Shown one piece after another: positions 1,327 through 36,531 of a stretch of 41,556 bases of DNA. Made by a program: the position numbers and the translations under genes. The notes under the pieces are model-generated. The model was not told where the DNA came from. It ran no database searches and was given only the letters and a program-made list of their open reading frames with translations. Numbering within the stretch: the first letter of the stretch is position 1; each line of letters begins with the position of its first letter. The stretch comes from a virus (lineage: Duplodnaviria > Heunggongvirae > Uroviricota > Caudoviricetes), in IMG/VR virus record IMGVR_UViG_2802429245_000005. The stretch is one strand, 5' to 3'.

Positions 1327-1824
1327 TCAGTGCCACGATTTTTGCTTCTTCAGTGAATCGTATTGCTGTTCGCAGGATTCTCCTGCAATCCGATACTTTT
1401 CAGCCTCAGCTGCTGTTGCGTTGTAAACTCGGTTGCTTTCTTCAAGCATGTCGGCGAGCACACCGATGACCTTGCTGGCTGGCGTGCCAGTGGGGAAAGA
1501 TCCGGTATAGTGTTCGGCGAGTCGCTTGGTTTTGTCAAGCTCGGCGCGCAGGCTGTCAGCAGCGGCATTAGCATGCTCAGCATCAACACGCGCCACATCG
1601 ATACGGGATTGTGCTTCACGTTCAATTTGTGTTTTCTCCTGATCACGTTGTGACCTGGCCTTATCATCAGCCTGTTTCTGATCTTCCTGTGCCTGCGCAT
1701 ACCCGGCGTCGTACTGACGAATGCCGTGTGCATTCCAGGCTACAACTCCTGATATGACCAGAACAGCAAGCATCGCCATGATAACCAACTGTTTCCAGTA
1801 TGCTTTTGCGAATGCCCAGATCAT
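1327..1824 (-). CDS. Rz-like i-spanin (lysis)
   Basis: N-terminal TM helix then charged coiled-coil body. Start overlaps endolysin stop (ATGA at 1821-1824). Last gene of the lysis cassette. Confidence 0.6.
1350..1598 (-). CDS. Rz1-like o-spanin lipoprotein embedded in Rz in another frame
   Basis: Internal start gives [17 protein letters not shown] (lipobox LTAC) followed by a Pro/Ser-rich segment, entirely inside the Rz ORF. Start codon choice (1598, 1583 or nearby) is uncertain. Confidence 0.4.
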   Translation of the reverse strand: MWRVLMLSMLMPLLTACAPSLTKPSDSPNTIPDLSPLARQPARSSVCSPTCLKKATEFTTQQQLRLKSIGLQENPANSNTIH

Positions 1825-2450
1825 AACGCCAGCACCTTACTGGCAGTGATGTATCGCGCGCGCCGGTCATCAATGCCGTTCCGGCCACCATTGATAAGCA
1901 GAGTTACACGTGCAATATCTCCGGTATACTTCATGCAGCCTTTGCTGGAGAAGAACCACGCCGCGCTACGAGCCGCGTATTCGTCCTGCGCAAGCAGTTC
2001 AGGACTCTCCAGCAGGTCAACCTTAAGACCGTTTCCACAGTCACGATAGTTATTCAAACCGGTAATCTGGATAAGTCCGCGCCCACGGTAGTTCCAGCCA
2101 TCGCCAGGAGCATTGTTACCCATGCGTTTGCTGTACACCAGATTGGCAATCGCTCTCTGGCGCTCAGGTGGCAATGGTGGTTCGCCTGCGCGTCGCCCCA
2201 ATGCGTTGGCCTGTCCCTGAGTGAGACGCCCAGCCCGAACAAAGTTAGCCAGTCCGCTGACGCTGTAGTTGAAATTTTCCTGCAACCGGGTGAAACCTCC
2301 AGACTCATGCCCGACCTGAGCAATAAACATTGCCTGATCTTCTGGTTTGCTGATACCAAACTCTTTCATCGCAGAAGTTATATGCGAGAACCAGCGTGCG
2401 GCCAGCGCCTCGCTAATACCAGCAGCTCGCTGGAATTGTTTAATCTCCAT
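1821..2450 (-). CDS. Endolysin, glycoside hydrolase family 19 (chitinase-like) lysozyme
   Basis: Internal ATG at 2448-2450 gives [12 protein letters not shown]... with [18 protein letters not shown] and NY motifs typical of GH19 phage endolysins. The longer ORF to 2615 has an atypical N-terminal extension. Confidence 0.75.
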
Positions 2451-2643
2451 GTTTAGACCTCGATACTTTAAAAATTTGAACGACGTTACCGCGCGTTTTA
2501 ATAACCGCAGCGAGCATGACAGCGTTGATAATGACCTCAGATAAATCCACAGCCATTGGCGTGCGGAACCAGATTGCATAGGCAACACGAACCGGAATAC
2601 TGGCCGCAGCAACAATCAGGAAATAAGCAAGCCACCCCCCCAT
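2440..2643 (-). CDS. Small two-TM membrane protein, candidate class II holin or antiholin
   Basis: 67 aa with two hydrophobic helices and a charged C-terminus (KVSRSKHGD). Overlaps the endolysin start by 11 nt. RBS is weak. Confidence 0.4.
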
Positions 2644-2733
2644 CTTCGATGTTGAGATCCGTTACGCCGGAATGTGACAACACGAATTGCTATGCCAGTA
2701 CAAATAACTGCATTGGTGATAAGCAAAAAAAAC

Positions 2734-3138
2734 TCATGCGTTACCATCGTCTTTTCTCCCCGGAATTAACTCGCGTGGATTATCGGAACGGTGGTAGAGC
2801 CATATACCAATACGCACAGCAACAATTGCTGACACGAATGCGCCAGCAGAGAAAACAATCCCTTTTTCAAAAGAGTCCTGCGTGATAGTAGGGATCAGGC
2901 TGGCTATGCCGATAAGAATTGATGCTGCTGGTTTATAAAAAAGAAGGCCGCAGAGAAAGCTAAGCATCGACAAGAGTACACGACGACGAATGGGATACTC
3001 TACCGCAGAGGTAACAAAAATTACCGCTCCAGCCAAAGCCCCCAAAGCAACCTCAGGAGGAACTCCTGCTATCACCGCCGCCAGAGAACTCATGCTAAGC
3101 CACTGATTTAAAGTTTCACTGGTTAGTTGAGCTGACAT
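2734..3138 (-). CDS. Multi-TM membrane protein, putative holin
   Basis: ATG at 3136-3138 preceded by GGTGG. About 134 aa with 3-4 predicted hydrophobic helices, immediately upstream of the endolysin. Confidence 0.5.
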   Translation of the reverse strand: MSAQLTSETLNQWLSMSSLAAVIAGVPPEVALGALAGAVIFVTSAVEYPIRRRVLLSMLSFLCGLLFYKPAASILIGIASLIPTITQDSFEKGIVFSAGAFVSAIVAVRIGIWLYHRSDNPRELIPGRKDDGNA

Positions 3139-3358
3139 GTTTTCCACCGTTTATATGCATAACTACCTCCTGAACAGTAAAGCATTATGCATGATAAACC
3201 ATTTATGGTTTTTTGTTACTTCAACATCGTCAATCCCCTGTTTTCATGCCGATAATAAGGCTCACCTTTTACATAACACTGAAGAAACAACAGTACAGAA
3301 ATGATTCAAACTATGGAGATCGGGTTGAATACCGCGCCATCAAATGGCGCGGTAGCGA

Positions 3359-6426: not shown

Positions 6427-6530
6427 GTTAAATCTCCAGATAGTCGCAGCACCCGTTGCGCCGCATATCTGGTTATTCTATTACCTGAAAAACCACATAT
6501 GGATAGAAAGACTGTAAATACGAATAGATA

Positions 6531-6545
6531 TTACCTTTCAGGTAA
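6531..6545. promoter_or_regulatory. Palindromic operator-like site TTACCTTTCAGGTAA
   Basis: Exact TTACC-N5-GGTAA between the divergent tailspike (start 6426) and gene 6622. Confidence 0.6.
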
Positions 6546-6621
6546 TTTGCAAAACGTGCTGGATAGCAAACAAATTATTTGCTACTGTATAAATATACAG
6601 TTATTGCATGGAGAAGATAAG

Positions 6622-6879
6622 ATGCAGCAGTATCACTATCCACTGGAAGACGGATTTACCGAAAGGATTCACACGCCGGGAGGCGTCAGATCACTGGTGG
6701 AGGGATCGCACTTGATGAAATTACTCCGGGATCTCGATAAGGATGGATTTAATGTCGATGGCCCACTTGCCGAACTGACTGCACTGATTAACTACGTCAC
6801 CAGCTCACAGATGTCTATGCAGGATCTGCAAACACATCTCGACTATTGTGCCGAACAATTACGAAAACAAACCCGGTAA
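6622..6879 (+). CDS. Small protein homologous to the C-terminal domain of the BRO-N antirepressor at 8028-8723
   Basis: ATG at 6622 with GGAGAAG upstream. Aligns with the antirepressor C-terminus (LMKLLRDLDKDGFNVDGPLAELT...DLQTHLDY versus LMNLLNQLQEDGHDVSGAAAELT...DIQTHAEY). Confidence 0.55.
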   Translation: MQQYHYPLEDGFTERIHTPGGVRSLVEGSHLMKLLRDLDKDGFNVDGPLAELTALINYVTSSQMSMQDLQTHLDYCAEQLRKQTR

Positions 6880-6886
6880 ATTTAAA

Positions 6887-6902
6887 GGCCGCAAGAGCGG
6901 CC
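6887..6902. terminator. Hairpin between convergent genes 6622-6879 and 6902-7630 (possible bidirectional terminator)
   Basis: GGCCGC-AAGA-GCGGCC with T-rich flanks on both strands. Confidence 0.4.
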
Positions 6903-7630
6903 TATCGTTTCGCTTTGTGCTCGTCCCAGCACGTTTTGCACCATGCCATTAAGCCGTCCGCATTTTGATTATTAGGGTAAAAGCTGGTTCGTTTTCTGCG
7001 GACATTACAAATTGGGCACCACTTCATATGACGTGTATTCTTTGGGCCATCGAGACACCTTGCACACCACTTAGTCAATCCATCTGGATTTTTTGACGAT
7101 TTCCTGAATTTTTCATATGGAAGGTTTATTCTGCATCGCAAGCACTGCTTGCTACCGCTTGAAACTCTGTTAGCTGATTCTTCTTTTGGCGGCGATACAG
7201 AAGATATTCTTGCTGGCTCTGATACTGCCTGAGGTGCTTTTTTAAATGACTGAGACGATATGTCATCACCAGGGAATCTTCCATGATATGCCGGACGCGT
7301 TGACACTCCAGGTGGAAGCTCAGCTGTAAACGGCTTTGGCTGAATCAGTTGCCTCTCTTTTGCTAACTCCTGCTGTTTATAATATGTCTGGATTACCGCA
7401 CTATCATAAGCAGGAGGTGCGGAAATATTAGGCGCATTACCTCCAGTTTTTTGAAACTGAGTAGAGGTGTGTTCTATCACCTGTGTACGATTAATCGTTA
7501 TCTCCCCATCTTCGGTCTTTATCGTTTTGTTATGATTAACGACCGTACGATCAGAGATCTTAGTCTTGTTCTGGTTGATAACGTAAATAATCACCGTAAC
7601 CACACCAACAACTATCCAGAAAACTTCCAT
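6902..7630 (-). CDS. Membrane-anchored protein with two tandem CxxC...WCxxC zinc-ribbon-like repeats
   Basis: RBS GAGGAAAAG before ATG (7628-7630). N-terminal TM helix, Pro/Ser-rich linker, repeats CLRCR...DGLTKWCARC and CPICN...DGLMAWCKTC. Operator motif at 7651-7665. Confidence 0.6.
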   Translation of the reverse strand: MEVFWIVVGVVTVIIYVINQNKTKISDRTVVNHNKTIKTEDGEITINRTQVIEHTSTQFQKTGGNAPNISAPPAYDSAVIQTYYKQQELAKERQLIQPKPFTAELPPGVSTRPAYHGRFPGDDISSQSFKKAPQAVSEPARISSVSPPKEESANRVSSGSKQCLRCRINLPYEKFRKSSKNPDGLTKWCARCLDGPKNTRHMKWCPICNVRRKRTSFYPNNQNADGLMAWCKTCWDEHKAKR

Positions 7631-7650
7631 TGCTTTTCCTCACAATAACA

Positions 7651-7665
7651 TTACCTTAAAGGTAA
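7651..7665. promoter_or_regulatory. Palindromic operator-like site TTACCTTAAAGGTAA
   Basis: Exact motif 21 nt upstream of the start of minus-strand gene 6902-7630. Confidence 0.6.
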
Positions 7666-7743
7666 TATCTTGCTTTCAGGTGATCAAGCATTAAACGCAA
7701 CCAACCAAATACGGTTGATTTTAATATTTATTCGCGTTTATCA

Positions 7744-7758
7744 TTACCTTTGCGGTAA
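7744..7758. promoter_or_regulatory. Palindromic operator-like site TTACCTTTGCGGTAA
   Basis: Exact motif at the head of the structured leader upstream of the antirepressor gene. Confidence 0.6.
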
Positions 7759-7792
7759 ATTTACATCGCACTCCTCTTGTGCCATAGTAATC

Positions 7793-7816
7793 GGGCACTG
7801 GCAAAATCCAGTGCCG
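7793..7816 (+). other. Perfect 8-bp stem-loop (GGCACTGG / CCAGTGCC) in the antirepressor leader
   Basis: Read directly; lies between the operator at 7744 and the terminator at 7851. Confidence 0.5.
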
Positions 7817-7850
7817 GGATTGGCGTCCCGGATTACTAAAAGGCGCATTC

Positions 7851-7870
7851 ACCGCGCAAGCGGTTTTTTT
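7851..7870 (+). terminator. Intrinsic terminator-like hairpin plus T7 tract in the antirepressor leader
   Basis: ACCGC-GCAA-GCGGT followed by TTTTTTT. Confidence 0.5.
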
Positions 7871-8027
7871 ATGCGTATAGCACGGCCACATTCGTATTAT
7901 GGTGGGCTGTGTGGGGGCACCGAAAGGTGCGCCGGGTCCTTTTAGCCGGTTACGCCAACCCTGCACAGTTCACCACCAACCGATTGGCGTCGGTAGTGGT
8001 GATTAACCAGACTAAAAGGTAACCACT

Positions 8028-8723
8028 ATGACAGCTACAAAAAGCACGTCCATTTTTTCTTTCGAATCCCAAGCCGATATACGGGTAATCGTCATTAATG
8101 GTGAGCCATGGTTTATCGCTTCAGATGTTTGTCGGGCTATAGGCATAGCAAACCATCGAGATGCTGTTCGAAAACTTGATGATGATGAGAAGGGCGTCGC
8201 TTCAACCGACACCCCTGGCGGTGAGCAAGAATCGATCATTATCTCCGAGTCAGGCCTCTACACACTGATCCTCCGCTGCCGCGATGCGGTGACACCAGGC
8301 ACTATCCCCTACCGCTTTCGTAAATGGGTTACAGGTGAGGTTCTTCCTCAGATCCGCCGCACCGGAAGTTACATTAAAAACTCGCTCCCGCAGGAAGAAC
8401 GCATAAAGATGGTTGCCGACCAGGTTGCCAACGCCACGGCGTCAGCAGTAATGCAGGCGATGAAGATAGAGAACAAAACCTACAGCGCCCCGCTGAAGCC
8501 AGGATACCGCAGTCTGATTCACTCGCCGTCTGGTGTTCTCGGCCTGACGGAGAACTCACTGCTGATGAATCTGCTGAACCAGTTACAGGAAGACGGGCAT
8601 GATGTATCGGGCGCGGCGGCGGAGCTGACCACCATGTTCTGCTACATCGTCGGTGTGAGTAAATGCCTGCGTGATATCCAGACGCATGCGGAGTACATCA
8701 ACGACAAGGCTGGGTTCTTCTGA
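8028..8723 (+). CDS. Antirepressor, BRO-N (Ant-type) N-terminal domain plus C-terminal domain
   Basis: N-terminus FSFESQADIRVIVINGEPWFIASDVCRAIGIANHRDAVRKLDDDEKG matches the Bro-N fold signature. RBS AAGG before ATG at 8028. Confidence 0.8.
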   Translation: MTATKSTSIFSFESQADIRVIVINGEPWFIASDVCRAIGIANHRDAVRKLDDDEKGVASTDTPGGEQESIIISESGLYTLILRCRDAVTPGTIPYRFRKWVTGEVLPQIRRTGSYIKNSLPQEERIKMVADQVANATASAVMQAMKIENKTYSAPLKPGYRSLIHSPSGVLGLTENSLLMNLLNQLQEDGHDVSGAAAELTTMFCYIVGVSKCLRDIQTHAEYINDKAGFF

Positions 8724-8789
8724 CGGGCGGCGGCACAGGGATGTGCCTTTAAAATAATCATTGGCGATGTGATGTAGATTCGCGTAATA

Positions 8790-8804
8790 TTACCTTAAAG
8801 GTAA
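8790..8804. promoter_or_regulatory. Palindromic operator-like site TTACCTTAAAGGTAA
   Basis: Exact motif immediately after a -10-like TAATAT (8785-8790) and 27 nt before ATG 8831. Confidence 0.6.
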
Positions 8805-8830
8805 ACCATGTGTTTACATGAGGAGGAGAT

Positions 8831-9040
8831 ATGGGATTTTGGTTCGCTCGTACAAAAACGAGGGATAATGCACCCAGCCCTCAGGCAAAAAATGCAGAAG
8901 TTCCGGCGTCAGCGCAGGTTAACAAGCGTGGTGGAGTATATATCTCATCACAGCAAATTTCTGAGCTTCCTGAGGTTAAGGAGATGCGTCGTCTCGCTGC
9001 TGCAATTGTTAAACAGGATCTTGCCACTGTAAGGAAGTAG
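8831..9040 (+). CDS. Small hydrophilic protein, first gene of an operator-controlled accessory cassette
   Basis: Strong RBS GAGGAGGAG before ATG at 8831. Operator motif at 8790-8804. Stop TAG overlaps the GTG of the next ORF. Confidence 0.55.
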   Translation: MGFWFARTKTRDNAPSPQAKNAEVPASAQVNKRGGVYISSQQISELPEVKEMRRLAAAIVKQDLATVRK

Positions 9041-9906
9041 TGTTGCTAGCTCTTCTAATTATCCCAATCCTGGTTAGCGGTTATATTATGATAACCGCTA
9101 ACCAGTATCATTATTTCCGTTTATACCGACACGAAGGCCAGCTTCTTTATATGAAAGTAGCGGCACTAGGTACATATTGCCTTGTTGCATCAGTAATAAT
9201 TGCAGCCGCTATAAAATATAAATGGCCTGATTTTCACCTAGTTCACGATATGGTGGAAACTTTTAATGTAACATCAAAACCAGAAACAGATAGAATTTAC
9301 ATGTGGCTGCTTCTTCTCTCAGCCACATCCATTTGCTTCTCTTTGTGTTATGTGTCTGTTGTGTGGGTGAAAGATTTTCTTCTTGGTTGTTTTTATAAAC
9401 GTGATATTTACGAGCAAAAAACAGAGGCAATGAAGGCCAGAGTACTGCGAAAAACTTACTCGCAGGGTTCTTTAGACTTACTATTGCTTGATGCTATTGA
9501 ATCGGATCCTAAACGACCAATGCTGATTACTTTATCATCAAACAAAGTGTATGTTGGAATAATAAATGGTTCTGGTGAACCAACGGAAAATCAGGGTCCG
9601 CATCAGCACATATCTTTTGTTCCTTTAATGTCAGGATACAGGAACAAAGAAAACTTATCTGTCACATTCACTAATGCTTATCCAGGAGAAATACAGGTCA
9701 AGCGGACTGCAGCAATAAGAGGAATTAGCAGAAAGAAAGTGCCAGGACTTGAGATCATGGTGTCTATTGACGAAATAAGTTATATATCATGGTTTGATTT
9801 TGAAGTATATAAAGCAACAAATAACAAAGTAGAATCCAGGGGGCACGTTATTCGTGTTACCAAAAATGGAAGAAATATATATCAAAGAAATAGCAAAAAA
9901 GAATAG
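9040..9906 (+). CDS. AT-rich integral membrane protein (three N-terminal TM helices plus soluble C-terminal domain); accessory gene
   Basis: 288 aa ORF. GTG at 9040 is coupled to the upstream stop; alternative ATG at 9088 lies in the loop of an 11-bp inverted repeat. AT-rich by eye. Intrinsic terminator directly after the stop. Confidence 0.6.
   Translation: MLLALLIIPILVSGYIMITANQYHYFRLYRHEGQLLYMKVAALGTYCLVASVIIAAAIKYKWPDFHLVHDMVETFNVTSKPETDRIYMWLLLLSATSICFSLCYVSVVWVKDFLLGCFYKRDIYEQKTEAMKARVLRKTYSQGSLDLLLLDAIESDPKRPMLITLSSNKVYVGIINGSGEPTENQGPHQHISFVPLMSGYRNKENLSVTFTNAYPGEIQVKRTAAIRGISRKKVPGLEIMVSIDEISYISWFDFEVYKATNNKVESRGHVIRVTKNGRNIYQRNSKKE
9074..9101 (+). other. 11-bp perfect inverted repeat around a candidate start codon
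   Basis: TTAGCGGTTAT-ATTATG-ATAACCGCTAA; the ATG at 9088-9090 is in the loop. Confidence 0.5.
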
Positions 9907-9927
9907 CCCGCGCCGCGGGCTTTTTTG
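9907..9927 (+). terminator. Rho-independent terminator after the accessory membrane-protein gene
   Basis: CCCGCG/CGCGGG stem followed by TTTTTT, immediately after stop TAG at 9904-9906. Confidence 0.7.
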
Positions 9928-9998
9928 TGGACGAAACAAAAGTCAGTGCTACACTCATTGACGCCACATTGAGATGGCTTATAGATGGAAATTTCACA

Positions 9999-10160
9999 AT
10001 GAAAAAAGCATTTGCTGCACTGTTCGTTTTGTTGTCTCTGGTAGCTTCAACTCAGGCCTTTGCCGGTCGTTGTCAGCACGACAGCGATACTGCTGCTGAC
10101 GGCTCCCGCTGCGGTGGGCGTTCTGCGGATTCCCGCCCGGGCGGCGGTGGCATCCGTTAA
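9999..10160 (+). CDS. Small secreted Cys-containing peptide (signal peptide plus about 31-aa mature part)
   Basis: Internal ATG at 9999 gives MKKAFAALFVLLSLVASTQAFA followed by GRCQHDSDTAADGSRCGGRSADSRPGGGGIR. RBS is weak. Confidence 0.35.
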   Translation: MKKAFAALFVLLSLVASTQAFAGRCQHDSDTAADGSRCGGRSADSRPGGGGIR

Positions 10161-10189
10161 AAACAAGGCCGCGAAAGCGTCCTGTTTGA

Positions 10190-11041
10190 TCACTGTGCAG
10201 TTTTCGCTGATCGATTTTCAGCTCTAAATTCAAGAACCGTTTCAATATTTCTTTCCTTCAGCATATCAATAACATTTTTATTCATTTGACTATCACTGGT
10301 TAATAACTGGTAAACGTTGCTTCTCTCTTTATCAGAGTTTTCTTTAACAGCTGCTTTGCATGCCAAATGCTTATTGAAATTTTCTACATCGCTAGTACAG
10401 GAATTTACGGCTGCTGATGAAATATCAGACGCTGAAGAAACACCATCATCCAAACGTTTTATAGCATTTTCTATACATGAGTTAAGGGAATAAACGACAA
10501 CTGAGCGATACCCTTCAGACGCACACCATTCTAAATTTCTTGAAGGATCGAGTGGTTTTACTTCGCTGGATTGAATTAACTTGTCAAAAACTGACTTATA
10601 TTCAATCTGTTTTTTATCTATAGCCCATACTTCAGTAGCTGATTTATAATTCCCCGTATGCCTATTAACATCAAATCCATGTTTTATAAGCAAATCTGCC
10701 CATGAAAGATTTATTGATTCATTGTTATGAGGCCATTTTCCTGTCAGAACCGCCCCCATAGACCCCATATATCCGCCATATGATGGTATAGCACCATGGC
10801 TCAGTAACTTCTCAGCAACCACAGGGCAATTAATTACATAAGAGGCGTAAAGCCCATTCCATAAAGCCCCTCTATAGTAATCGCCACGATTAGGTTCTTT
10901 TAAGTCGATAGCCTTTGATAATTGTTCACACGTTTTGCATGCATCAAAGTTATCCTTATTGCATTGCAATGAACTGGCAGCTGTAGGATTTACAGAGACT
11001 ATTGAAAGCACTATGCCAAAAAACAAATTTATTTTTTTCAT
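10190..11041 (-). CDS. AT-rich secreted/periplasmic protein of unknown function
   Basis: N-terminal signal peptide MKKINLFFGIVLSIVSVNPTAAS. Start codon sits 1 nt after the stop of the upstream 1129-aa virion protein gene. AT-rich by eye. Confidence 0.6.
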   Translation of the reverse strand: MKKINLFFGIVLSIVSVNPTAASSLQCNKDNFDACKTCEQLSKAIDLKEPNRGDYYRGALWNGLYASYVINCPVVAEKLLSHGAIPSYGGYMGSMGAVLTGKWPHNNESINLSWADLLIKHGFDVNRHTGNYKSATEVWAIDKKQIEYKSVFDKLIQSSEVKPLDPSRNLEWCASEGYRSVVVYSLNSCIENAIKRLDDGVSSASDISSAAVNSCTSDVENFNKHLACKAAVKENSDKERSNVYQLLTSDSQMNKNVIDMLKERNIETVLEFRAENRSAKTAQ

Positions 11042-24498: not shown

Positions 24499-26174
24499 TG
24501 TGATTGCCCACCCTGACCACTAACTGCATTCGCCATAGCTGACAAAACACTCGGATCCGAAGTTTTAGCTTCGCTTAGCGTCTTGGCACCCTGTGCCGCC
24601 GCCATCCCCATCGCCATCATTTGTTGCTGCTGTTGCTGCTGTGCCCGTTGCTGGCGAGCCTGCTCAACCTGTTCCTGCGGAACAATGACGGTTGGAGACA
24701 CTCCGGACATATCAGCGAATGCATCGATCGCCTGATCAACGTTGAGTTTGTCGAGAGCTTCTGGTTTCGCTTGCGCAAGTTGACCAATGAAGTTGACCGT
24801 AGACGCCAGACTGGACAAGCCGATAGACTTCTGCGCCTGAGCCATGACGGAAATGTATTCGACCTTCAGGGGCATACCTTCCATCGCGTCAGGCGGTGGC
24901 GGCAGCATGTTTTTACGCACCATCATCGAGAAAGCGCGGTCAATGAGAGGATTAAGACATTCGTCGTTCAGACGCTCCAGAACCGGCCCCAACATCAGAA
25001 GTTTTTCTTCTTTCATTTCGATCACCGCTTCAACAGGCATCGAGCGGGTATTGATGTTCTGCAACATCATGAACAGATCGACAAAGTAGGCGCTGTTAAT
25101 GATTTGACGAGTGTCCTGAATGTCTGCCACCAAATCTGCTGTACTGGGGTTAACCAGATAAGCAGGCCTGAAGCCATCCTGACCAGTAATCTGATCGATA
25201 TACGTGATGTCGCCAGGAAGAAGGGAGGCGCGCTGATTCTTGAGGGAAGTCGGAGCAACCATCGGCGGATTGGTGGCTTTATCAATCAACTGCGACTTGC
25301 GCTTCTGGAGAAGCTGCAATGCCTTAACAGGTCCAAGCGCCAGCATACCCGGGCATGATGATCCATAAACATCTTCGCCGTTAACTTCCCAGCGCGGAGC
25401 CATAATTGGAAACTCATCGAATCCGGACTCACGCAACAACTTGTCGTTATCGCCACCAACCTCGTAATAAACCGATTTGAATGGCTTGTTCTTGCTATCC
25501 AGCTTCGATGTATCGCGGTCAATGTTCGGGTAAACCGAATGCATCACTTCAATCCACTTCTCGTAGGTGCCGCTTTCCCACATGCTTTTTACGGATTCGC
25601 TGACGTTATTTAGCCCGAACTCCTGAACAAGCTGACGAACAGTCATAGAGAACTTACGAAAACATGTGTCCACACTGCCACGAGGTGAGTTAGCCAGGTA
25701 GTAACTACCTATCGGGAATGGCATTGTGCGAATTATGTCCTCGTCATCCTCCAGCACCGCCATTGCACCAGTGCTGTATGTGCCGAGGCTTCCGTATAAC
25801 TGCGGAAGAGACTGGTAGAGATTCGACTTATTGAACATATCGTTCATGCGGTTCTGCACCGCCTCAAGCCACAACTTAACAGGGCCATAATCCATCATTT
25901 CAGGATCTGGCGTAGCCAGGCGAAACCACGGACGCGCGGGACTTGTGATGCCTGACATCATGCCGCTGGCGAGAGTGCGCGCCGCCATAGTCCCGGTCGA
26001 ATCAATAATGCGTGTATTGCGTCGATCGTTACGGTTGACCTCAGAAGTCAGAAAGCGGGAACCACGCGGGTTGATGTAATCACTCAACTCGCGCCAGTGC
26101 GGCTCGAACGACTGACGCTCGCTTTCAAGTTGTGCGAACTGTTTGTTCAATCGCTCTTTAGTTGTTTCCGCCAT
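24495..26174 (-). CDS. Portal protein
   Basis: 559 aa. Sits between terminase and scaffold/coat genes. Gln-rich C-terminus. ATG at 26172-26174. Confidence 0.8.
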   Translation of the reverse strand: MAETTKERLNKQFAQLESERQSFEPHWRELSDYINPRGSRFLTSEVNRNDRRNTRIIDSTGTMAARTLASGMMSGITSPARPWFRLATPDPEMMDYGPVKLWLEAVQNRMNDMFNKSNLYQSLPQLYGSLGTYSTGAMAVLEDDEDIIRTMPFPIGSYYLANSPRGSVDTCFRKFSMTVRQLVQEFGLNNVSESVKSMWESGTYEKWIEVMHSVYPNIDRDTSKLDSKNKPFKSVYYEVGGDNDKLLRESGFDEFPIMAPRWEVNGEDVYGSSCPGMLALGPVKALQLLQKRKSQLIDKATNPPMVAPTSLKNQRASLLPGDITYIDQITGQDGFRPAYLVNPSTADLVADIQDTRQIINSAYFVDLFMMLQNINTRSMPVEAVIEMKEEKLLMLGPVLERLNDECLNPLIDRAFSMMVRKNMLPPPPDAMEGMPLKVEYISVMAQAQKSIGLSSLASTVNFIGQLAQAKPEALDKLNVDQAIDAFADMSGVSPTVIVPQEQVEQARQQRAQQQQQQQMMAMGMAAAQGAKTLSEAKTSDPSVLSAMANAVSGQGGQSQ

Positions 26175-26188
26175 TTCAATGACTCCGG

Positions 26189-26395
26189 TTACTGACCAAG
26201 CAGCGTTTTACCGCTGGTATTAGCGGTTGATGTGTCGCCCTGAGAACCGGTAAGCAGCGTAGAACTACGACCAGCAGCAGCGCGACGGCGACGAGTTTCT
26301 TCGTCGCGGGCATCAACAACGGCGGCATCCTGCTCCTGTGGTGCGGCCTGAACTTCTGGTGTTGCAGGCACTGATGGTGAGCTACCCATGCACAT
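26189..26395 (-). CDS. Small hydrophilic protein upstream of portal
   Basis: 68-aa ORF (ATG at 26393-26395) ending 15 nt before the portal start. Frame choice against the overlapping 26176-26415 ORF is uncertain. Confidence 0.3.
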   Translation of the reverse strand: MCMGSSPSVPATPEVQAAPQEQDAAVVDARDEETRRRRAAAGRSSTLLTGSQGDTSTANTSGKTLLGQ

Positions 26396-26485
26396 ATCAA
26401 TGACTCCGTACGCAATTAAATTATTACCAATTTAACCACATATGATTTATTTATCGTAGATAGTTGACATTTAACGCACGAATTA

Positions 26486-26500
26486 TTACCTTTCAGGTAA
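26486..26500. promoter_or_regulatory. Palindromic operator-like site TTACCTTTCAGGTAA
   Basis: Exact motif next to TTGACA (26464-26469), upstream of the tRNA region. Confidence 0.6.
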
Positions 26501-26822
26501 CCAAAGAGTTCATTCCGGTTACTAACCTGACTGGCTTGTCGTTAAATTGAACAGGTGGAGTGAGCTTTTATTTTGAGCAGTACGGCGTATGGCACATGCG
26601 CCGATAGCGGTCTGGATACGTTTAAGGGGCACCCTCCCTTGCTCGGGCAAACGAACCAGGTAGCCGGAATGTGCAAGTCGAGCGGTTTTATTCCGCGCAC
26701 GGGGATTCACCATCCCGGCGATTCGGTGTGACACCTCGGAAGAGACGAGGGTACAACGATGAGGGCATTTATGGAGCCGCGACAAAGTGTGGTGCCTTAA
26801 CAGGCTAAGTGCTCTCAGCGTT

Positions 26823-26899
26823 GTGGCATTAGCTCAGCTGGACAGAGCAACCGCCTTCTAAGCGGTTGGTCGCAGGTTCGAATCCTGCATGCCACGCCA
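26823..26899 (+). tRNA. tRNA-Arg, anticodon UCU (reads AGA), phage-encoded
   Basis: Cloverleaf read directly: acceptor GTGGCAT/ATGCCAC, D-arm GCTC-AGCTGGACA-GAGC, anticodon stem ACCGC/GCGGT with loop CTTCTAA, T-arm GCAGG-TTCGAAT-CCTGC, discriminator G and encoded CCA. Confidence 0.85.
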
Positions 26900-26942
26900 G
26901 AATCACGCCTAAGGACCGTGATGCCAGAAGTTCCATGGGCTT

Positions 26943-26985
26943 GGCGGTGATGGTTTCCCTTGAAGGACTATCACCGCCCTTTTTA
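26943..26985 (+). terminator. Rho-independent terminator downstream of tRNA-Arg
   Basis: 9-bp perfect stem GGCGGTGAT / ATCACCGCC followed by CTTTTT. Confidence 0.6.
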
Positions 26986-27058
26986 CAGCAGGACGCCATT
27001 GCGATGACTTCATGCTGTAAACCAGTACAGCCACGGAAGGCATAACTCATTGCTTCCA

Positions 27059-27087
27059 GTTCGCCCGGTTCGCCGGGCATTTTTTTG
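27059..27087 (+). terminator. Rho-independent terminator (second, downstream of the tRNA)
   Basis: GCCCGG-TTCG-CCGGGC followed by ATTTTTTT. Confidence 0.7.
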
Positions 27088-27102
27088 CCTGGTGACTGAA
27101 CG

Positions 27103-27117
27103 TTACCTTGAAGGTAA
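27103..27117. promoter_or_regulatory. Palindromic operator-like site TTACCTTGAAGGTAA
   Basis: Exact motif 33 nt upstream of ATG 27150, downstream of the tRNA terminators. Confidence 0.6.
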
Positions 27118-27149
27118 GATAACAAAAACATTTAACATCTGGTTTAGAC

Positions 27150-27755
27150 ATGTTCGAGCAATTTAAAGAGATCGCATCATCGGCTATTAGCACAACGTCA
27201 GAGAGAGTCCGCAACCCAGCACTTGGGGCATTTGTGTTTTCGTGGTGTTCTTTTAACTGGAATCCACTATTATTTTTATTCTTCAGTAAGTCAGGAATTG
27301 AAGAAAAAATAAATTATATATCTTCCCATAGTGATGCGTACCACTCACTCTTATATCCAGCTTTATGTGCATTCGCGCTGTGTGTAATAGTTCCATGGTT
27401 TAACAATATAGTGGTGATGTTTCAAAAAATTCCACTACAGAACATCGATAACTTCAAACACAACAAAAGCCTCAGGGATGTTAAAAACGCCATAGAATTG
27501 CGTAAGCTTGAGGCACAAAGGGACATTACATACGACAGAGTTAAGGTTGAGTTTGAGTCTGAGATTCAATTCTATAAAAATGATTTAATCAAGCACCAAG
27601 AGTCTTTGAATTCTTTTTTGCAGGAAAGAGATTCCCTTATTGAAAAAATAATGGCGCTTGAAAAAGAACTTGCAGAAGAAAAAATAAAATCCAATACCAG
27701 AATTGCAAATAAGTTTAACTCAAGGAACAATCGCAACACAGACAATGCTGCTTAA
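27150..27755 (+). CDS. AT-rich membrane protein with C-terminal coiled coil; accessory gene
   Basis: 201 aa on the strand opposite to the flanking late genes. Two hydrophobic segments then a heptad-like Glu/Lys-rich tail. Operator motif at 27103-27117. Confidence 0.6.
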   Translation: MFEQFKEIASSAISTTSERVRNPALGAFVFSWCSFNWNPLLFLFFSKSGIEEKINYISSHSDAYHSLLYPALCAFALCVIVPWFNNIVVMFQKIPLQNIDNFKHNKSLRDVKNAIELRKLEAQRDITYDRVKVEFESEIQFYKNDLIKHQESLNSFLQERDSLIEKIMALEKELAEEKIKSNTRIANKFNSRNNRNTDNAA

Positions 27756-27759
27756 AACT

Positions 27760-29229
27760 TTATGAAAACGGATCGTACTCAGTAATAGCTTTCCCCTGCT
27801 GCTGCCGTGGGTCATTAGTTTTCTTGGCTACCGGGAAGGCGAACGTTAGCAGCAGCGCATCACCTTTACCCGGCGAACGCCCAAGTCGCTCTTTGATATC
27901 TTCCTTCGGTTCGATAACGATTTTACCGTCCACGCGAACTTTGTACTCTGCCGTCGACAGGTCGTCCGCTGTTTCCTGGTCATCCAGCATCCCGCCCAGC
28001 CTCAGCCATGTCTTGCATGAGTTGAACATCTCCCCACGCTTGTTGAGCATCTGCGGGTCAGTAGACGCGCCACCGAACGGAACAAGTTGCCATGTACGAC
28101 CCCAGCCGTCACCGATTGACTTCAGACCAGTTCCGTAACCGAAGTCGATGAACACTGCGTCAGCCTGGTACTGGTCTTCAAAGTCAGCGATACGCTTCGC
28201 CATTATCAGATCGTCAGTGGTCTTGTTGCCAGTCCACAGCACCTTACTGTGCAGCCCCTGCCGCAGGTATATCACAGCGTCATCAACGCCGGAGTATGCA
28301 GGGTCAACGCCGATTATCACCGGAGCATGTGCCACCTGCGCAGCAGTTACCACCCGTTTCATTGCCTCGTCAGTAAGACCGGTAGGGATAAACTGCAATT
28401 CAGATGCATCAGGAAATATGCCGCGCACACGGATTTTAACGAAGTCGCTGTCTTCCCCGTAGTCATCAACCCATTTCTGTAATTGCTGCTTGTTAGTACC
28501 TTCCACCGTCCGGCTGTCAATCTGTGCAGTTTTCCAGCGGTGTTTATATTTGCGGAAACATTCGCGGAAACGCCCGGTGTTACGTGTCGGGTTTCCGAAC
28601 GCCACCCAGATAATCTCAGTGTCTTCGTCCGTAAGCGCACCCTCAGCAACTTCCCACACCAGATCCGCAATGTTCGACGCTTCATCGAATACCACGATGA
28701 TGCGTTTGCGCTCATTGTGTAATCCGGCGAATGCCTCAGTGTTGTGCTCAGACCAGGGGATTGCGTCAGCTCGCCACCGCTTGTCGTGCCCAGGGTCATT
28801 GCTGTACATCGCGGTAGCGGTACAGGTAAACCAATCTTTCGTGATAGCAAGGTTCGACCACTTGATAATTTCCGGCCAGGTCTTCGTTCGTAGCTGGTTG
28901 TCGGTGTTGGCGGTCACCACGACCTTACAATCCTCGCAAGTGGACATGCCCCAGTTGATCAGCATTGAGATGAATGCTGATTTACCAATACCGTGACCAG
29001 AAGCACGTGCCAGCATAAGCGGCTGATAGCGCGTCTCTGGATTCTGCAGATGATCACGTATCTCTCGGAACGCATCGGCCTGCCACTGACGTGGACCGGT
29101 GGCATGTGCCAGTTCAGTCCCCTCTTCCCCCCACGGGAACGCATAGAGGGCATAGCCAAGTGGATCGTGAGTGAACCCTGCAATATCCTCGATTAACTGC
29201 TCTTCAGGAGATAACGCTGTATCTGTCAC
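27760..29229 (-). CDS. Terminase large subunit
   Basis: 489 aa. GTG start at 29227-29229 overlaps the small-subunit stop, with RBS AGGATGG. Walker-A-like GHGIGKS and a C-terminal nuclease-type acidic region. Confidence 0.85.
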   Translation of the reverse strand: MTDTALSPEEQLIEDIAGFTHDPLGYALYAFPWGEEGTELAHATGPRQWQADAFREIRDHLQNPETRYQPLMLARASGHGIGKSAFISMLINWGMSTCEDCKVVVTANTDNQLRTKTWPEIIKWSNLAITKDWFTCTATAMYSNDPGHDKRWRADAIPWSEHNTEAFAGLHNERKRIIVVFDEASNIADLVWEVAEGALTDEDTEIIWVAFGNPTRNTGRFRECFRKYKHRWKTAQIDSRTVEGTNKQQLQKWVDDYGEDSDFVKIRVRGIFPDASELQFIPTGLTDEAMKRVVTAAQVAHAPVIIGVDPAYSGVDDAVIYLRQGLHSKVLWTGNKTTDDLIMAKRIADFEDQYQADAVFIDFGYGTGLKSIGDGWGRTWQLVPFGGASTDPQMLNKRGEMFNSCKTWLRLGGMLDDQETADDLSTAEYKVRVDGKIVIEPKEDIKERLGRSPGKGDALLLTFAFPVAKKTNDPRQQQGKAITEYDPFS

Positions 29230-29839: not shown

Positions 29840-29854
29840 TTACCGTTGTGGTAA
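29840..29854. promoter_or_regulatory. Palindromic operator-like site TTACCGTTGTGGTAA at the late-operon start
   Basis: Exact motif between the minus-strand terminator (29866-29891) and the terminase small subunit start (29822). Nested GGTAA/TTACC half-sites around it (29832-29861). Confidence 0.55.
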
Positions 29855-33393: not shown

Positions 33394-33408
33394 TTACCCC
33401 TGAGGTAA
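33394..33408. promoter_or_regulatory. Palindromic operator-like site TTACCCCTGAGGTAA
   Basis: Exact motif directly upstream of the start of gene 33046-33390. Confidence 0.55.
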
Positions 33409-33455: not shown

Positions 33456-33470
33456 TTACCAAACAGGTAA
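33456..33470. promoter_or_regulatory. Palindromic operator-like site TTACCAAACAGGTAA
   Basis: Exact motif between the P-like gene end and gene 33046-33390; 62 bp from the previous site. Confidence 0.55.
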
Positions 33471-35694: not shown

Positions 35695-35709
35695 TCACCC
35701 ATAAGGTAA
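35695..35709. promoter_or_regulatory. Operator-like site TCACCCATAAGGTAA (one mismatch) in immunity region
   Basis: First of three sites between the divergent cro-like (start 35658) and repressor-like (start 35813) genes. Confidence 0.45.
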
Positions 35710-35725
35710 CAAAAATCAAGGATAG

Positions 35726-35740
35726 TTACCTATGAGGTGC
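35726..35740. promoter_or_regulatory. Operator-like site TTACCTATGAGGTGC (two mismatches) in immunity region
   Basis: Second site; degenerate right half. Confidence 0.35.
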
Positions 35741-35742
35741 AT

Positions 35743-35812: not shown

Positions 35813-36397
35813 ATGAAAAGTATCCAGGACGTCCGCAGGCAAAATCTCAACGACTTGATCGACCGTGAATTCAATGGTGTTCAGACGCGGATGGCAGAAA
35901 AACTTGGAACTCAGGCAAATCTGGTAAACCGCTGGGCTCTTGGCAAGAAGGTTATCGGCGACCAGGTTGCGCGAAAAATTGAAGCTGCCGCCAATAAACC
36001 CCGTAACTGGCTTGATATCGATCGCTCGCTTTCTCAGGAAGGTTTTCAGCCTGTCGGCCCAAGCGACATTGGTCAGCTGGCGGCTCACAACCTGGAACGC
36101 TGGATGAGCGAAAGCCGCGACCTTTCAACACAGGGAAAACTTCACCGCGCATCCGGCGTCGCCCAGGTAACAATCAGCCGCCTGTTAAACAATGAGGTCA
36201 GCGTTTCCATTTCCACCCTGGAGAATGTTGCATCCGCATTCGGGCGTCACGGCTATGAATTACTGATTCACCCGCACGACCCTGCGACCATCAACTATGA
36301 CCGCTCGCGCTACGCATTGTTACCCGAAACCGAGAAAGCAAAGATCGAAAGTTACATTGAATTTGTCATCAACCAGAACGAAAAAAATAAACAATAA
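35813..36397 (+). CDS. Repressor-like protein with two XRE-type HTH domains (candidate lysogeny repressor)
   Basis: 194 aa with two HTH-like segments and no S24 peptidase domain. Monocistronic: strong terminator at 36418-36444. Operator motifs cluster between it and the cro-like gene. Confidence 0.7.
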   Translation: MKSIQDVRRQNLNDLIDREFNGVQTRMAEKLGTQANLVNRWALGKKVIGDQVARKIEAAANKPRNWLDIDRSLSQEGFQPVGPSDIGQLAAHNLERWMSESRDLSTQGKLHRASGVAQVTISRLLNNEVSVSISTLENVASAFGRHGYELLIHPHDPATINYDRSRYALLPETEKAKIESYIEFVINQNEKNKQ

Positions 36398-36454: not shown

Positions 36455-36469
36455 TTACCTTATGGGTAA
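36455..36469. promoter_or_regulatory. Palindromic operator-like site TTACCTTATGGGTAA
   Basis: Exact motif about 20 bp upstream of TTGACA (36489-36494), ahead of the recombination operon. Confidence 0.6.
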
Positions 36470-36516: not shown

Positions 36517-36531
36517 TTACCCCAACGGTAA
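36517..36531. promoter_or_regulatory. Palindromic operator-like site TTACCCCAACGGTAA
   Basis: Exact motif immediately downstream of -10-like CATAAT/TAATCA (36509-36516); paired with the site at 36455. Confidence 0.6.

What the first reader, a model, noticed from the sequence alone, without database searches (positions are those of the whole stretch)
27103..27755. Operator-controlled AT-rich membrane/coiled-coil gene inserted in the packaging-head region
The gene interrupts the late operon between terminase and portal on the opposite strand, with an operator overlapping a -35-like TTGAAG. The 201-aa product has two hydrophobic segments and a long Glu/Lys-rich coiled-coil tail. Position and architecture resemble superinfection-exclusion or abortive-infection proteins such as SieB-type membrane proteins; this is architectural resemblance only.
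Basis: inference. Interest (0 to 1): 0.6.

Follow-up and report, generated by a model that had tools for sequence, protein, structure and literature searches.

The report
Repressor-gated membrane-protein moron in a prophage
A phiV10/epsilon15-type prophage carries, in a variable slot next to its terminase gene, a small gene for an inner-membrane protein of a large uncharacterised family, and the gene's promoter contains one of the phage's own repressor-binding sites; the protein is probably an accessory exclusion or defence factor, but it is not a SieB relative and its function is untested.

Summary
ORF 27150-27755 (+, 201 aa, 36% GC against 48% for the window) is a real gene under purifying selection. 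It lies between tRNA-Arg and the convergent large-terminase gene of a Uetakevirus prophage.

The palindrome TTACCTTGAAGGTAA (27103-27117) is one of 12 copies of TTACC-N5-GGTAA in the window, where 0 are expected by chance. All 12 are non-coding, three cluster between the HTH repressor gene and its divergent partner, and phiV10 has them at matching places. It is therefore very probably a repressor operator.

Comparing seven alleles moves the promoter to -35 GTGACT (27092-97) and -10 TAAGAT (27115-20), with the operator in the spacer.

The protein has a conserved N-terminal domain of about 95 aa with two hydrophobic helices, then one long charged helix (AlphaFold pLDDT 90). The family has about 1,700 50%-identity clusters and no match in Pfam, NCBIfam, PADLOC, PDB or BFVD. 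SieB membership fails.

Relatives sit as lone opposite-strand genes in Uetakeviruses, lambdoid nin regions, phage-plasmids, inoviruses and prophage remnants, and they diverge much faster than their neighbours.

Best reading: a repressor-gated moron encoding a membrane-anchored exclusion or defence factor. The cassette anatomy is solid. The function is inferred.

The parts
27063..27086 (+). Intrinsic terminator (GCCCGG-TTCG-CCGGGC, one A, then T7). It ends the tRNA-Arg unit and marks the left boundary of the variable slot.
   Evidence: Terminator scan. Homology to phiV10 stops at window 27086. The hairpin and T-run are conserved upstream of diverged alleles.
27092..27097 (+). Proposed -35 hexamer GTGACT (inferred).
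   Evidence: GTGAC(T/C) is conserved 17 nt upstream of the -10 in window, L020, L017, L008 and L003. pHL15EC-2 has ATGACC at the same place.
27103..27117 (.). Operator: perfect palindrome TTACCTTGAAGGTAA, lying in the promoter spacer and sharing its last three bases (TAA) with the -10.
   Evidence: 12 copies against 0 expected. It is conserved in front of alleles that are only 32-42% identical in protein. Its right half is destroyed in the lambdoid copy KO-TP1.
27115..27120 (+). Proposed -10 hexamer TAAGAT (inferred).
   Evidence: The same position reads TATAAT in pHL15EC-2, TAAAAT in Atlantibacter, TATACT in BUCT711 and TACAAT in KO-TP1.
27108..27113 (+). It lies inside the operator and is probably not the functional -35.
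   Evidence: The sequence shows it. The promoter scan did not call it. TTGAAG is not conserved: it reads TTGCAG, TTAAAG or ATAACG in other alleles.
27150..27755 (+). Coding sequence, 201 aa plus stop. Member of PHROG 4780 (unknown function).
   Evidence: PHROG E 1e-51. dN/dS is 0.21-0.39 against close alleles. 1,717 representative relatives.
27219..27287 (+). Hydrophobic segment 1, residues 24-46. It carries the family motif G-A-F-x-F-S-W-x-x-F-N-W. The model breaks the helix at N36.
   Evidence: Hydropathy. Invariant W32 and N36; near-invariant G26, W37 and S46. Model helices 23-35 and 37-45.
27336..27425 (+). Hydrophobic segment 2, residues 63-92. It is the start of the long helix and contains invariant P70 and near-invariant P82 and Q92.
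   Evidence: Hydropathy up to 2.1. Alignments. Model.
27426..27749 (+). Long charged helix, residues 93-200, inferred to be cytoplasmic. Its length and sequence vary across the family.
   Evidence: Model helix 63-200 with pLDDT 95-98 over residues 91-180. Net positive charge just after segment 2. The family alignment is conserved only in the first ~180 residues.
35813..36397 (+). Candidate trans-acting repressor (194 aa, HTH_3), the counterpart of phiV10 p40, epsilon15 gp38 and ZX5 ORF21.
   Evidence: Pfam HTH_3 1.2e-09. phiV10 annotation. Three operator-like sites lie in the divergent region just upstream. ZX5 ORF21 behaved as the lysogeny repressor when overexpressed (PMC9782041).
35743..35757 (.). 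Operator copy in the immunity region. It has weaker neighbours at 35695-35709 and 35727-35741.
36455..36469 (.). Operator copy, the upstream partner of a pair spaced 62 bp apart.
36517..36531 (.). Operator copy that abuts the -10 and covers +1 of a TTGACA-17-AATCAT promoter.
33394..33408 (.). Operator copy, one of a 62-bp pair together with 33456.
33456..33470 (.). Operator copy, one of a 62-bp pair together with 33394.
29840..29854 (.). Operator copy 21 nt upstream of the small-terminase start as annotated in EC.W1-9.
26486..26500 (.). Operator copy 16 nt downstream of a perfect TTGACA, upstream of the tRNA-Arg unit.
8790..8804 (.). Operator copy in front of accessory genes.
7744..7758 (.). 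Operator copy upstream of the Bro-N antirepressor gene. phiV10 has an identical site at 20497.
7651..7665 (.). Operator copy between the divergent genes 6902..7630 (-) and the Bro-N unit.
6531..6545 (.). Operator copy upstream of the conserved part of ORF 6499..6879.

Best explanation
This is a self-contained accessory cassette (a moron) in a variable slot of a phiV10/epsilon15-like (Uetakevirus) prophage. The slot lies between the tRNA-Arg unit and the 3' end of the large-terminase gene, on the strand opposite to the structural genes.

The cassette has three parts:
- a sigma-70-type promoter, -35 GTGACT at 27092-97 and -10 TAAGAT at 27115-20;
- a 15-bp perfect palindrome in the promoter spacer (27103-17), which is one of the phage's 12 repressor operators;
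- a 201-codon gene.

The product is a small inner-membrane protein. It has a conserved N-terminal domain of about 95 aa with two hydrophobic helices, probably with both N and C termini in the cytoplasm. One long charged helix of about 105 aa follows, probably in the cytoplasm, where it could pair with itself or with a partner.

Proposed working:
1. The prophage's HTH repressor (35813-36397) binds the operator and keeps the gene off or low in a stable lysogen.
2. The protein is made when the repressor is missing. That covers the first minutes of infection, induction, repressor-less prophage remnants, and copies in other elements that have lost the operator.
3. The protein inserts into the inner membrane and acts there as an exclusion or defence factor against other phages. 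It could do so by interfering with genome entry or by a membrane-level abort.

Shown here: the gene, the cassette anatomy, the operator family, the conserved promoter/operator geometry, the family's spread and rapid divergence, and the lack of any known homologue.

Inferred: which protein binds the operator, the direction of regulation, the membrane topology and the exclusion/defence function.
For: Real gene:
- The ORF is real and dN/dS is 0.21-0.39 against close alleles.
- Conservation starts at residue 1 across the family.

Variable slot:
- phiV10 has an unrelated gene here.
- Only 25 of the 433 E. coli complete genomes with the flanks carry this gene.
- The same slot holds alleles 30-43% identical in BUCT711, pHL15EC-2 and L030, while TerL is 75% identical in L030.

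Operator:
- There are 12 copies against 0 expected, and by my mapping of the sites onto the ORFs and family matches all are non-coding.
- They include a three-site cluster between the repressor gene and its divergent partner.
- Two pairs are spaced 62 bp apart and flank promoters.
- phiV10 has 8 copies at matching places.
- The related ZX5 HTH protein acts as the lysogeny repressor (PMC9782041).

Repression geometry:
- The operator lies between the -35 and -10 and shares bases with the -10.
- The -10 position reads TATAAT, TAAAAT, TATACT or TAAGAT in different alleles.
- In the three diverged alleles that keep the operator, the regulatory module is 67-77% identical while the coding DNA is 55-60%.
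- The lambdoid copy, which lacks the cognate repressor, has lost the right operator half and has a better -10, TACAAT.
- phiV10's lysogen-expressed oac gene has no operator.

Membrane protein:
- Two hydrophobic segments.
- A confident all-helical model with pLDDT 90.4.
- Positive charge follows segment 2.

Accessory or defence-like behaviour:
- Relatives are lone opposite-strand genes in lambdoid nin regions.
- They also occur in a phage-plasmid slot with two alleles, in inovirus accessory regions and next to a Hachiman system.
- The gene is kept intact beside a truncated TerL in Klebsiella michiganensis remnants.
Against: - No experiment bears on the function.
- Repression in the lysogen is the opposite of what a classical prophage-expressed exclusion gene needs, so the benefit would be confined to the lytic phase or to leaky expression.
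- There is only one operator at this promoter, with no partner 62 bp away, so repression may be partial.
- No terminator follows the gene. Its stop is 4 nt from the TerL stop, so it is not a textbook moron.
- Heptad periodicity of the tail is weak.
- The topology rests on hydropathy and charge only.
- One same-slot allele (L030) has no recognisable operator.
Confidence: 0.4

Rival explanations
1. A host-takeover or envelope/division modulator of the lytic programme, comparable to lambda Kil or Qin DicB. These are prophage genes held silent by the repressor that act on the cell once it is lifted. On this reading the protein alters division, membrane physiology or lysis timing for the benefit of the phage's own lytic growth, and does not act against other phages.
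For: - The operator lies inside the core promoter, as at the phage's early and terminase promoters, so the gene belongs to the derepressed (lytic) regulon.
- It is a membrane anchor plus a long cytoplasmic helix with no enzymatic domain.
- The neighbouring operator-controlled units, the tRNA and the antirepressor, are also lytic-phase functions.
Against: - The family also occurs in inoviruses, plasmids, lambdoid nin regions and decayed prophage remnants, where a function tied to this phage's lytic cycle makes little sense.
- The extreme divergence at a fixed slot (30-43% against 75% for TerL) is more typical of arms-race genes.
- Most phiV10-like prophages do without the gene.
- Intact copies in remnants that show no other operator in the stretches examined suggest that expression is tolerated.
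Confidence: 0.2
2. A classical prophage-expressed superinfection-exclusion or abortive-infection protein, as the first reader suggested (SieB- or SieA-like in role). It would be made in the lysogen because the single operator is leaky or is not a repressor site at all.
For: - Moron-like position, low GC and membrane architecture.
- There is a single operator without a cooperative partner.
- Copies in lambdoid phages and remnants lack the operator or the repressor and are presumably expressed constitutively.
- P22 SieA shows that a small inner-membrane protein can block podovirus DNA injection (PMC10883804).
Against: - It is not homologous to SieB.
- SieA's three-TM, 162-aa architecture and its FxRYPxEAxxFNK motif are absent (and the sequence).
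- The operator occupies the spacer and -10, and its preservation across diverged alleles argues that it is used.
- The known lysogen-expressed gene of phiV10 lacks it.
Confidence: 0.15
3. A gene with no benefit to phage or host: selfish or decaying cargo, or a mis-called ORF.
For: There are no functional data, and the gene is absent from most related prophages.
Against: - dN/dS is below 0.4.
- There are 1,717 representative relatives with a conserved N-terminal domain and invariant W32, N36 and P70.
- The AlphaFold model is confident.
- The promoter and operator are conserved.
- The gene is retained intact next to a truncated terminase gene.
Confidence: 0.05

Closest known systems
PHROG 4780 (with PHROGs 13369, 35327 and 22645), phage protein families of unknown function
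   Same: Direct sequence membership: E 1e-51 over residues 1-197. The Klebsiella phage BUCT711 protein in the same slot also belongs (1.8e-99).
   Different: The family has no assigned function, so membership explains nothing. The window protein is a short form (201 aa against a typical 250-330 aa) that lacks the variable C-terminal part.
Lambda/P22 SieB (Pfam PF14163), a prophage-encoded abortive-exclusion membrane protein
   Same: Similar size (184 aa against 201 aa). Lambda SieB also has hydrophobic stretches in its N-terminal half (sequence). It is likewise a single gene on the strand opposite to its neighbours in a temperate phage.
   Different: There is no sequence relationship. The SieB C-terminal part is not a long single helix. 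SieB acts from the repressed prophage, whereas this gene carries a repressor operator in its promoter.
[quoted passage not shown]
   Same: A small inner-membrane protein of a temperate podovirus, with several highly diverged alleles at one locus. It is a plausible model for how a protein of this kind could exclude phages.
   Different: SieA has three predicted TM helices, 162-164 aa, no long helix, and a cytoplasmic motif FxRYPxEAxxFNK that this protein lacks. It is expressed from the prophage.
T4 Imm and Sp (from general knowledge; not tested here beyond the Pfam scan)
   Same: They are membrane proteins made early in the lytic cycle that stop later-arriving phage genomes. That is the timing the operator would impose on this gene.
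   Different: No Pfam match of any kind at E<=0.01. Imm is much smaller and has no long helix. T4 is virulent.
Repressor-controlled prophage genes such as lambda kil and Qin dicB (from general knowledge)
   Same: An accessory gene kept silent by the prophage repressor that acts on the host cell once the repressor is lifted.
   Different: No sequence relationship is known. Those genes are small soluble or peripheral proteins inside early operons, not stand-alone opposite-strand cassettes.
Morons as defined for HK97/HK022 (extra transcription units between conserved phage genes; from general knowledge)
   Same: It has its own promoter, deviant GC content, an opposite strand, and is present or absent among close relatives.
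   Different: There is no terminator of its own downstream, and its promoter is wired into the phage's repressor regulon rather than being independent of it.

Membership tests
SieB (PF14163) | Match to the family profile | tested here: not met
   Pfam finds lambda SieB at 1e-29, which serves as a positive control. It gives no hit for this protein at E<=0.1 and none for 47 relatives at E<=0.01. hhalign of the family against lambda SieB gives probability 0.6%.
SieB (PF14163) | Expressed from the repressed prophage | tested here: inconclusive
   An operator in the core promoter argues against it, but no expression data exist.
SieB (PF14163) | Aborts lytic growth of superinfecting phages | not testable with these tools
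   This needs plating and one-step growth assays.
P22 SieA | Three TM helices, about 162 aa, cytoplasmic motif FxRYPxEAxxFNK | tested here: not met
   The features are taken from PMC10883804. This protein has two hydrophobic segments plus a helix of more than 100 aa. The motif is absent from its sequence. No direct alignment to a SieA sequence was run.
PHROG 4780 | Match to the family profile over most of the length | tested here: met
   E 1e-51, residues 1-197 against profile positions 1-199 of 275.
Known anti-phage defence systems (PADLOC-DB v2.0.0) | Match of the conserved N-terminal domain to any model | tested here: not met
   No families for 30 N-terminal domains at E<=0.01. The full-length hits are low-scoring coiled-coil matches only.
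Moron (autonomous accessory transcription unit) | Own promoter | tested here: met
   -35 and -10 are conserved across alleles. This is a prediction only; there are no transcript data.
Moron (autonomous accessory transcription unit) | Own terminator | tested here: not met
   The gene's stop is 4 nt from the convergent TerL stop. Only weak terminator-like hairpins lie nearby.
Moron (autonomous accessory transcription unit) | Deviant composition, and presence or absence among close relatives | tested here: met
   36% GC against 48%. phiV10 and others lack the gene. It is in 25 of 433 E. coli genomes with the flanks.
Uetakevirus repressor regulon | Operator TTACC-N5-GGTAA overlapping the core promoter | tested here: met
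   A perfect palindrome at 27103-27117. The geometry is conserved. Binding itself was not tested.
Integral inner-membrane protein | Membrane-spanning helices and membrane localisation | tested here: inconclusive
   Two hydrophobic segments and a confident helical model. No dedicated TM predictor was available, and localisation is not testable here.

The most novel reading that the evidence does not exclude
The family, with about 1,700 50%-identity clusters and no Pfam domain, could be a new class of single-gene, membrane-acting phage-exclusion or abortive effector. In Uetakeviruses it would be wired to the prophage's own repressor so that it fires only when the repressor is lost: on induction, on fresh infection, or when a superinfecting phage's antirepressor or SOS signal knocks the repressor out. 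That would make it a derepression-triggered defence, unlike the constitutively expressed Sie/Abi genes known so far.
Probability: 0.12. Interest if true: 0.75.

Novelty: new variant of a known kind. Interest (0 to 1): 0.42.

Why it matters
If the protein excludes or aborts other phages, it would add a large, unannotated family to the catalogue of prophage-borne defences. The family occurs across Enterobacterales and Vibrio phages, phage-plasmids, inoviruses and plasmids. It would also give a tractable E. coli example of an accessory gene that a phage has placed under its own immunity repressor, which bears on when during the phage life cycle such genes pay off.

Independently of the gene's function, the 12-site operator network shows that this phage genus controls early genes, terminase genes, a tRNA, an antirepressor and accessory genes directly from one operator type. 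I found no description of this network in the papers I could search.

Tried and rejected
- **Homology searches:** Pfam, NCBIfam and PADLOC scans of the protein, of 47 relatives and of 30 N-terminal domains gave nothing beyond coiled-coil noise. The only other hit was a sub-threshold YdjM match at E 0.026.
- **PDB sequence profile search:** it returned only myosin-like coiled coils.
- **SieB homology:** rejected.
- **Spanin or lysis role:** rejected, because the phage has its own holin, endolysin and Rz cassette at 1327-3147 and no lysis family matched.
- **Structural role:** rejected, because most relatives of the phage lack the gene.
- **Collection searches:** the word-index protein searches found only close relatives. 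The locus search with the alignment failed for lack of conserved stretches. The genome-collection scan found nothing.
- **Rfam:** nothing in 26100-27900 except the tRNA.
- **Literature:** searches for the family, for Uetakevirus operators or for exclusion genes in this genus found nothing specific. The epsilon15 genome paper could not be retrieved under the PMC id I recalled.
set aside, because TTGAAG is not conserved in other alleles whereas the GTGACT-17-TAAGAT geometry is.
Full report
**What the window is.** The nearest record is Escherichia phage EC.W1-9 (97% identity over 26400-27800). phiV10, TL-2011b, ZX5 and other Uetakeviruses match only the left half of that stretch. The gene order is small and large terminase, T7-type portal, Bbp19-like protein and the rest on the minus strand. 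An HTH repressor, lambda-P-like replication genes and an integrase at the right end match phiV10 read in reverse.

**The observation.**
- ORF 27150..27755 (+) encodes 201 aa.
- It converges on the large-terminase gene (27760..29229, -), and the two stop codons are 4 nt apart.
- To its left on the + strand lie tRNA-Arg(UCU) at 26823-26899 and two terminator hairpins at 26943-26978 and 27063-27078.
- Further left are a 68-aa gene and the portal gene on the minus strand.
- The ORF is 36% GC in a 48% GC window.
- Hydropathy windows above 1.0 cover residues 24-46 and 61-97, and the C-terminal 106 residues are rich in N, K, E and L.
- The heptad signal of the tail is weak (137 of 2000 shuffles reach it). 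I call it a long charged helix.

**The palindrome is a real operator.**
- TTACCTTGAAGGTAA (27103-27117) is a perfect 7+1+7 palindrome.
- The core TTACC-N5-GGTAA occurs 12 times in the window, against 0.00 expected from shuffles. Allowing three mismatches to the full palindrome gives 15 sites against 1.4 expected.
- By my mapping of the sites onto the ORFs and family matches, every copy lies in non-coding DNA.
- Three sites (35695, 35727, 35743) crowd the divergent region between the 194-aa HTH gene at 35813..36397 and its leftward partner.
- Two pairs are spaced exactly 62 bp apart: 33394/33456 and 36455/36517. The 36517 copy abuts the -10 and covers +1 of a TTGACA-17-AATCAT promoter.
- Another copy lies 21 nt upstream of the small-terminase start, after an extended -10-like TGgTACTAT.
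- Others precede the Bro-N antirepressor gene, the tRNA unit and accessory genes.
- phiV10 has 8 copies at the corresponding places, including the same 62-bp pairs.
- In the close relative ZX5, overexpressing the HTH protein cut holin and endolysin transcripts by more than 99.9% and abolished free phage (PMC9782041).
- I infer that the motif is the operator of the lysogeny repressor. Binding has not been shown.

**The promoter.**
Comparison of alleles points elsewhere.
- Upstream regions were taken from seven alleles whose proteins are only 30-43% identical to the window protein in the diverged cases.
- Most of them share the terminator hairpin, the T-run, GTGAC(T/C), a 17-nt spacer holding the operator, and a -10 that begins with the operator's last bases.
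- That -10 reads TAAGAT in the window (27115-20), TATAAT in the circular E. coli element pHL15EC-2, TAAAAT in an Atlantibacter remnant and TATACT in Klebsiella phage BUCT711.
- TTGAAG itself is not conserved.
- In the three diverged alleles that keep the operator, the regulatory module is 67-77% identical to the window's, while the coding DNA is 55-60% identical.
- In the lambdoid phage KO-TP1, which has no such operators in the 10.5 kb examined, the right half-site is gone and the -10 has become TACAAT.
- An operator in the spacer and -10 is a repressing position.
- phiV10's oac gene acts in the lysogen according to its record, and it has no operator in its upstream region.
- The gene is therefore probably silent or low in a stable lysogen and turned on with the lytic regulon.
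- It has only one operator, so repression may be incomplete.

**The slot.**
- Homology to phiV10 ends at 27086, just after the terminator's T-run. phiV10 carries an unrelated 123-aa gene there, similar to Sf6 gp66, with no operator.
- Of 5,426 complete E. coli genomes, 433 match some part of the stretch and 25 carry the whole cassette.
- The same slot holds diverged members of the same family in other phages of this type:
  - 263 aa, 41% identical, in Klebsiella phage BUCT711;
  - 272 aa as annotated, 43% identical, in pHL15EC-2;
  - 246 aa, 30% identical, in a metagenomic relative whose large terminase is 75% identical.
- A fast-diverging family at a fixed place between conserved genes is the pattern seen for arms-race loci.

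**The protein and its family.**
- The protein belongs to PHROG 4780, of unknown function (E 1e-51).
- An exhaustive profile search found 1,717 representative proteins at E<=0.001 and 252 at E<=1e-10. They are typically 250-330 aa and align over the first ~180 residues.
- The conserved part is the N-terminal ~100 residues. Its consensus is ER-x-KNP-xx-GAF-x-FSW-xx-FNW, then LP-xx-N, then Q-x-KP. W32, N36 and P70 are invariant.
- The rest of the protein varies in length and sequence. Mean column identity is 49% for the N-terminal alignment against 19% overall.
- The window protein and its close relatives (199-203 aa) are a short form. dN/dS of 0.21-0.39 shows that the short form is maintained.
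- With 47 sequences AlphaFold gives pLDDT 90.4. The helices are 2-19, 23-35, 37-45, 50-60 and one long helix 63-200 that starts as the second hydrophobic segment.
- Lys and Arg are enriched just after that segment. This suggests that the C-terminal helix is cytoplasmic and that both hydrophobic segments span the membrane. That topology is an inference.
- No Pfam, NCBIfam or PADLOC model covers the N-terminal domain.

**SieB.** Pfam's SieB model recognises lambda SieB at 1e-29 but not this protein. A profile-profile comparison gives probability 0.6%. The protein is not a SieB family member. It also lacks the three-TM architecture and the conserved motif of P22 SieA (PMC10883804).

**Where relatives live.** Family members appear as single genes on the strand opposite to all their neighbours in several settings:
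- lambdoid nin regions (KO-TP1; Citrobacter; another followed by an Ion_trans_2 channel gene);
- phage-plasmid-like contigs, between parA and tail genes, with two different alleles;
- the accessory region of Vibrio filamentous phages;
- a Providencia region close to a Hachiman system;
- Klebsiella conjugative plasmids, as truncated copies next to IS1;
- Klebsiella michiganensis, where the intact gene with its operator sits beside a large-terminase gene cut down to its last 172 codons, a decayed prophage that kept this gene;
- an Atlantibacter copy near guaA, the Uetakevirus attachment region, which looks similar.

These settings show that the protein works on its own and is useful, or at least tolerated, outside this phage's lytic cycle.

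**Explanation and rivals.**
- Secure: a repressor-gated accessory cassette encoding a small membrane-anchored helical protein of a large uncharacterised family.
- Function is inferred from context only. I favour an exclusion or defence role at the inner membrane (confidence about 0.4). The reasons are the mobility of the family between element types, its rapid divergence at fixed slots, its retention in decayed prophages, and the precedent of small inner-membrane exclusion proteins.
- The operator then implies protection of infected or induced cells, in the manner of T4 Imm, or leaky protection in the lysogen.
- The main rival (0.2) is a host-modulating lytic-phase function in the manner of Kil or DicB. 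It fits the regulation but not the distribution.
- A classical prophage-expressed Sie/Abi role (0.15) fits the distribution but not the operator.
- Non-function is unlikely (0.05).

**Novelty and score.** The kind of thing, an accessory membrane-protein gene in a phage variable slot, is familiar. The family is uncharacterised, and a conserved wiring of such a gene into the immunity regulon is an unusual variant. Without a phenotype it is a good candidate rather than a discovery. Interest 0.42.

Noticed in passing
window 6531, 7651, 7744, 8790, 26486, 27103, 29840, 33394, 33456, 35743, 36455, 36517 (each 15 bp); L015 (phiV10) 87, 3252, 20497, 31953, 32015, 32727, 35070, 35132: There is a genome-wide operator network, TTACC-N5-GGTAA. 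It includes pairs spaced exactly 62 bp apart that flank promoters, and a three-site cluster at the repressor gene. One operator type appears to control early genes, terminase genes, the antirepressor, the tRNA and accessory units. I found no description of it in the papers I could search.
   Followed up: partly
window 26457-26899: tRNA-Arg(UCU) seems to have its own promoter: a perfect TTGACA at 26457-62 with an operator at 26486. A conserved leader of about 320 nt (26500-26822) has no Rfam match. Part of that leader is about 83% identical to sequences in the lambdoid phages 2H10 and cdtI.
   Followed up: no
window 27150-27755 and 26823-26899: Seven of the gene's 10 Arg codons are AGA or AGG, against 23% in seven large minus-strand structural and packaging genes. 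The tRNA next door reads AGA. This may simply reflect the low GC of the gene.
   Followed up: partly
window 27753-27762: The gene's stop and the TerL stop are 4 nt apart with no terminator between them. In BUCT711 the two genes overlap by 4 nt. Transcription of the cassette should therefore run antisense into the terminase gene, and terminase transcription should run antisense through the cassette.
   Followed up: no
window 6400-10200: This is a second cargo region, between the tailspike gene and the next structural gene, and it is much larger than in phiV10. It holds several operator-preceded genes. One is a 242-aa protein (6902..7630, -; PHROG 6762) with weak endonuclease VII and Lar-like zinc-finger matches. 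Others are a Bro-N antirepressor (8028..8723) and a 288-aa protein of PHROG 3630 (9040..9906).
   Followed up: partly
window 26829-27131 (-): A 100-aa minus-strand ORF overlaps the tRNA gene and both terminators. Its counterpart is annotated as a hypothetical protein in phiV10 (p04) and EC.W1-9. It is probably not a gene.
   Followed up: no
L028 8001-9908: In one lambdoid prophage a family member (305 aa) is followed, on the same strand, by a 304-aa gene with a potassium-channel-type domain (Ion_trans_2). Together they form a two-gene opposite-strand insert in the nin region.
   Followed up: no
L010 7001-14552: A Providencia homologue (183 aa) lies about 4 kb from a Hachiman-type pair (HamA plus a helicase), beside an Ogr/Delta gene and a portal-gene remnant.
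   Followed up: no
L017 4954-6192: In Klebsiella michiganensis the intact gene and operator sit beside a large-terminase gene truncated to its last ~172 codons. This arrangement is seen on many contigs (the index lists the protein in 37 blocks).
   Followed up: partly
window 35813-36397: The phiV10 record annotates the counterpart of this candidate repressor as having two helix-turn-helix motifs. That would raise the question of whether one monomer could contact both half-sites of the palindrome.
   Followed up: no
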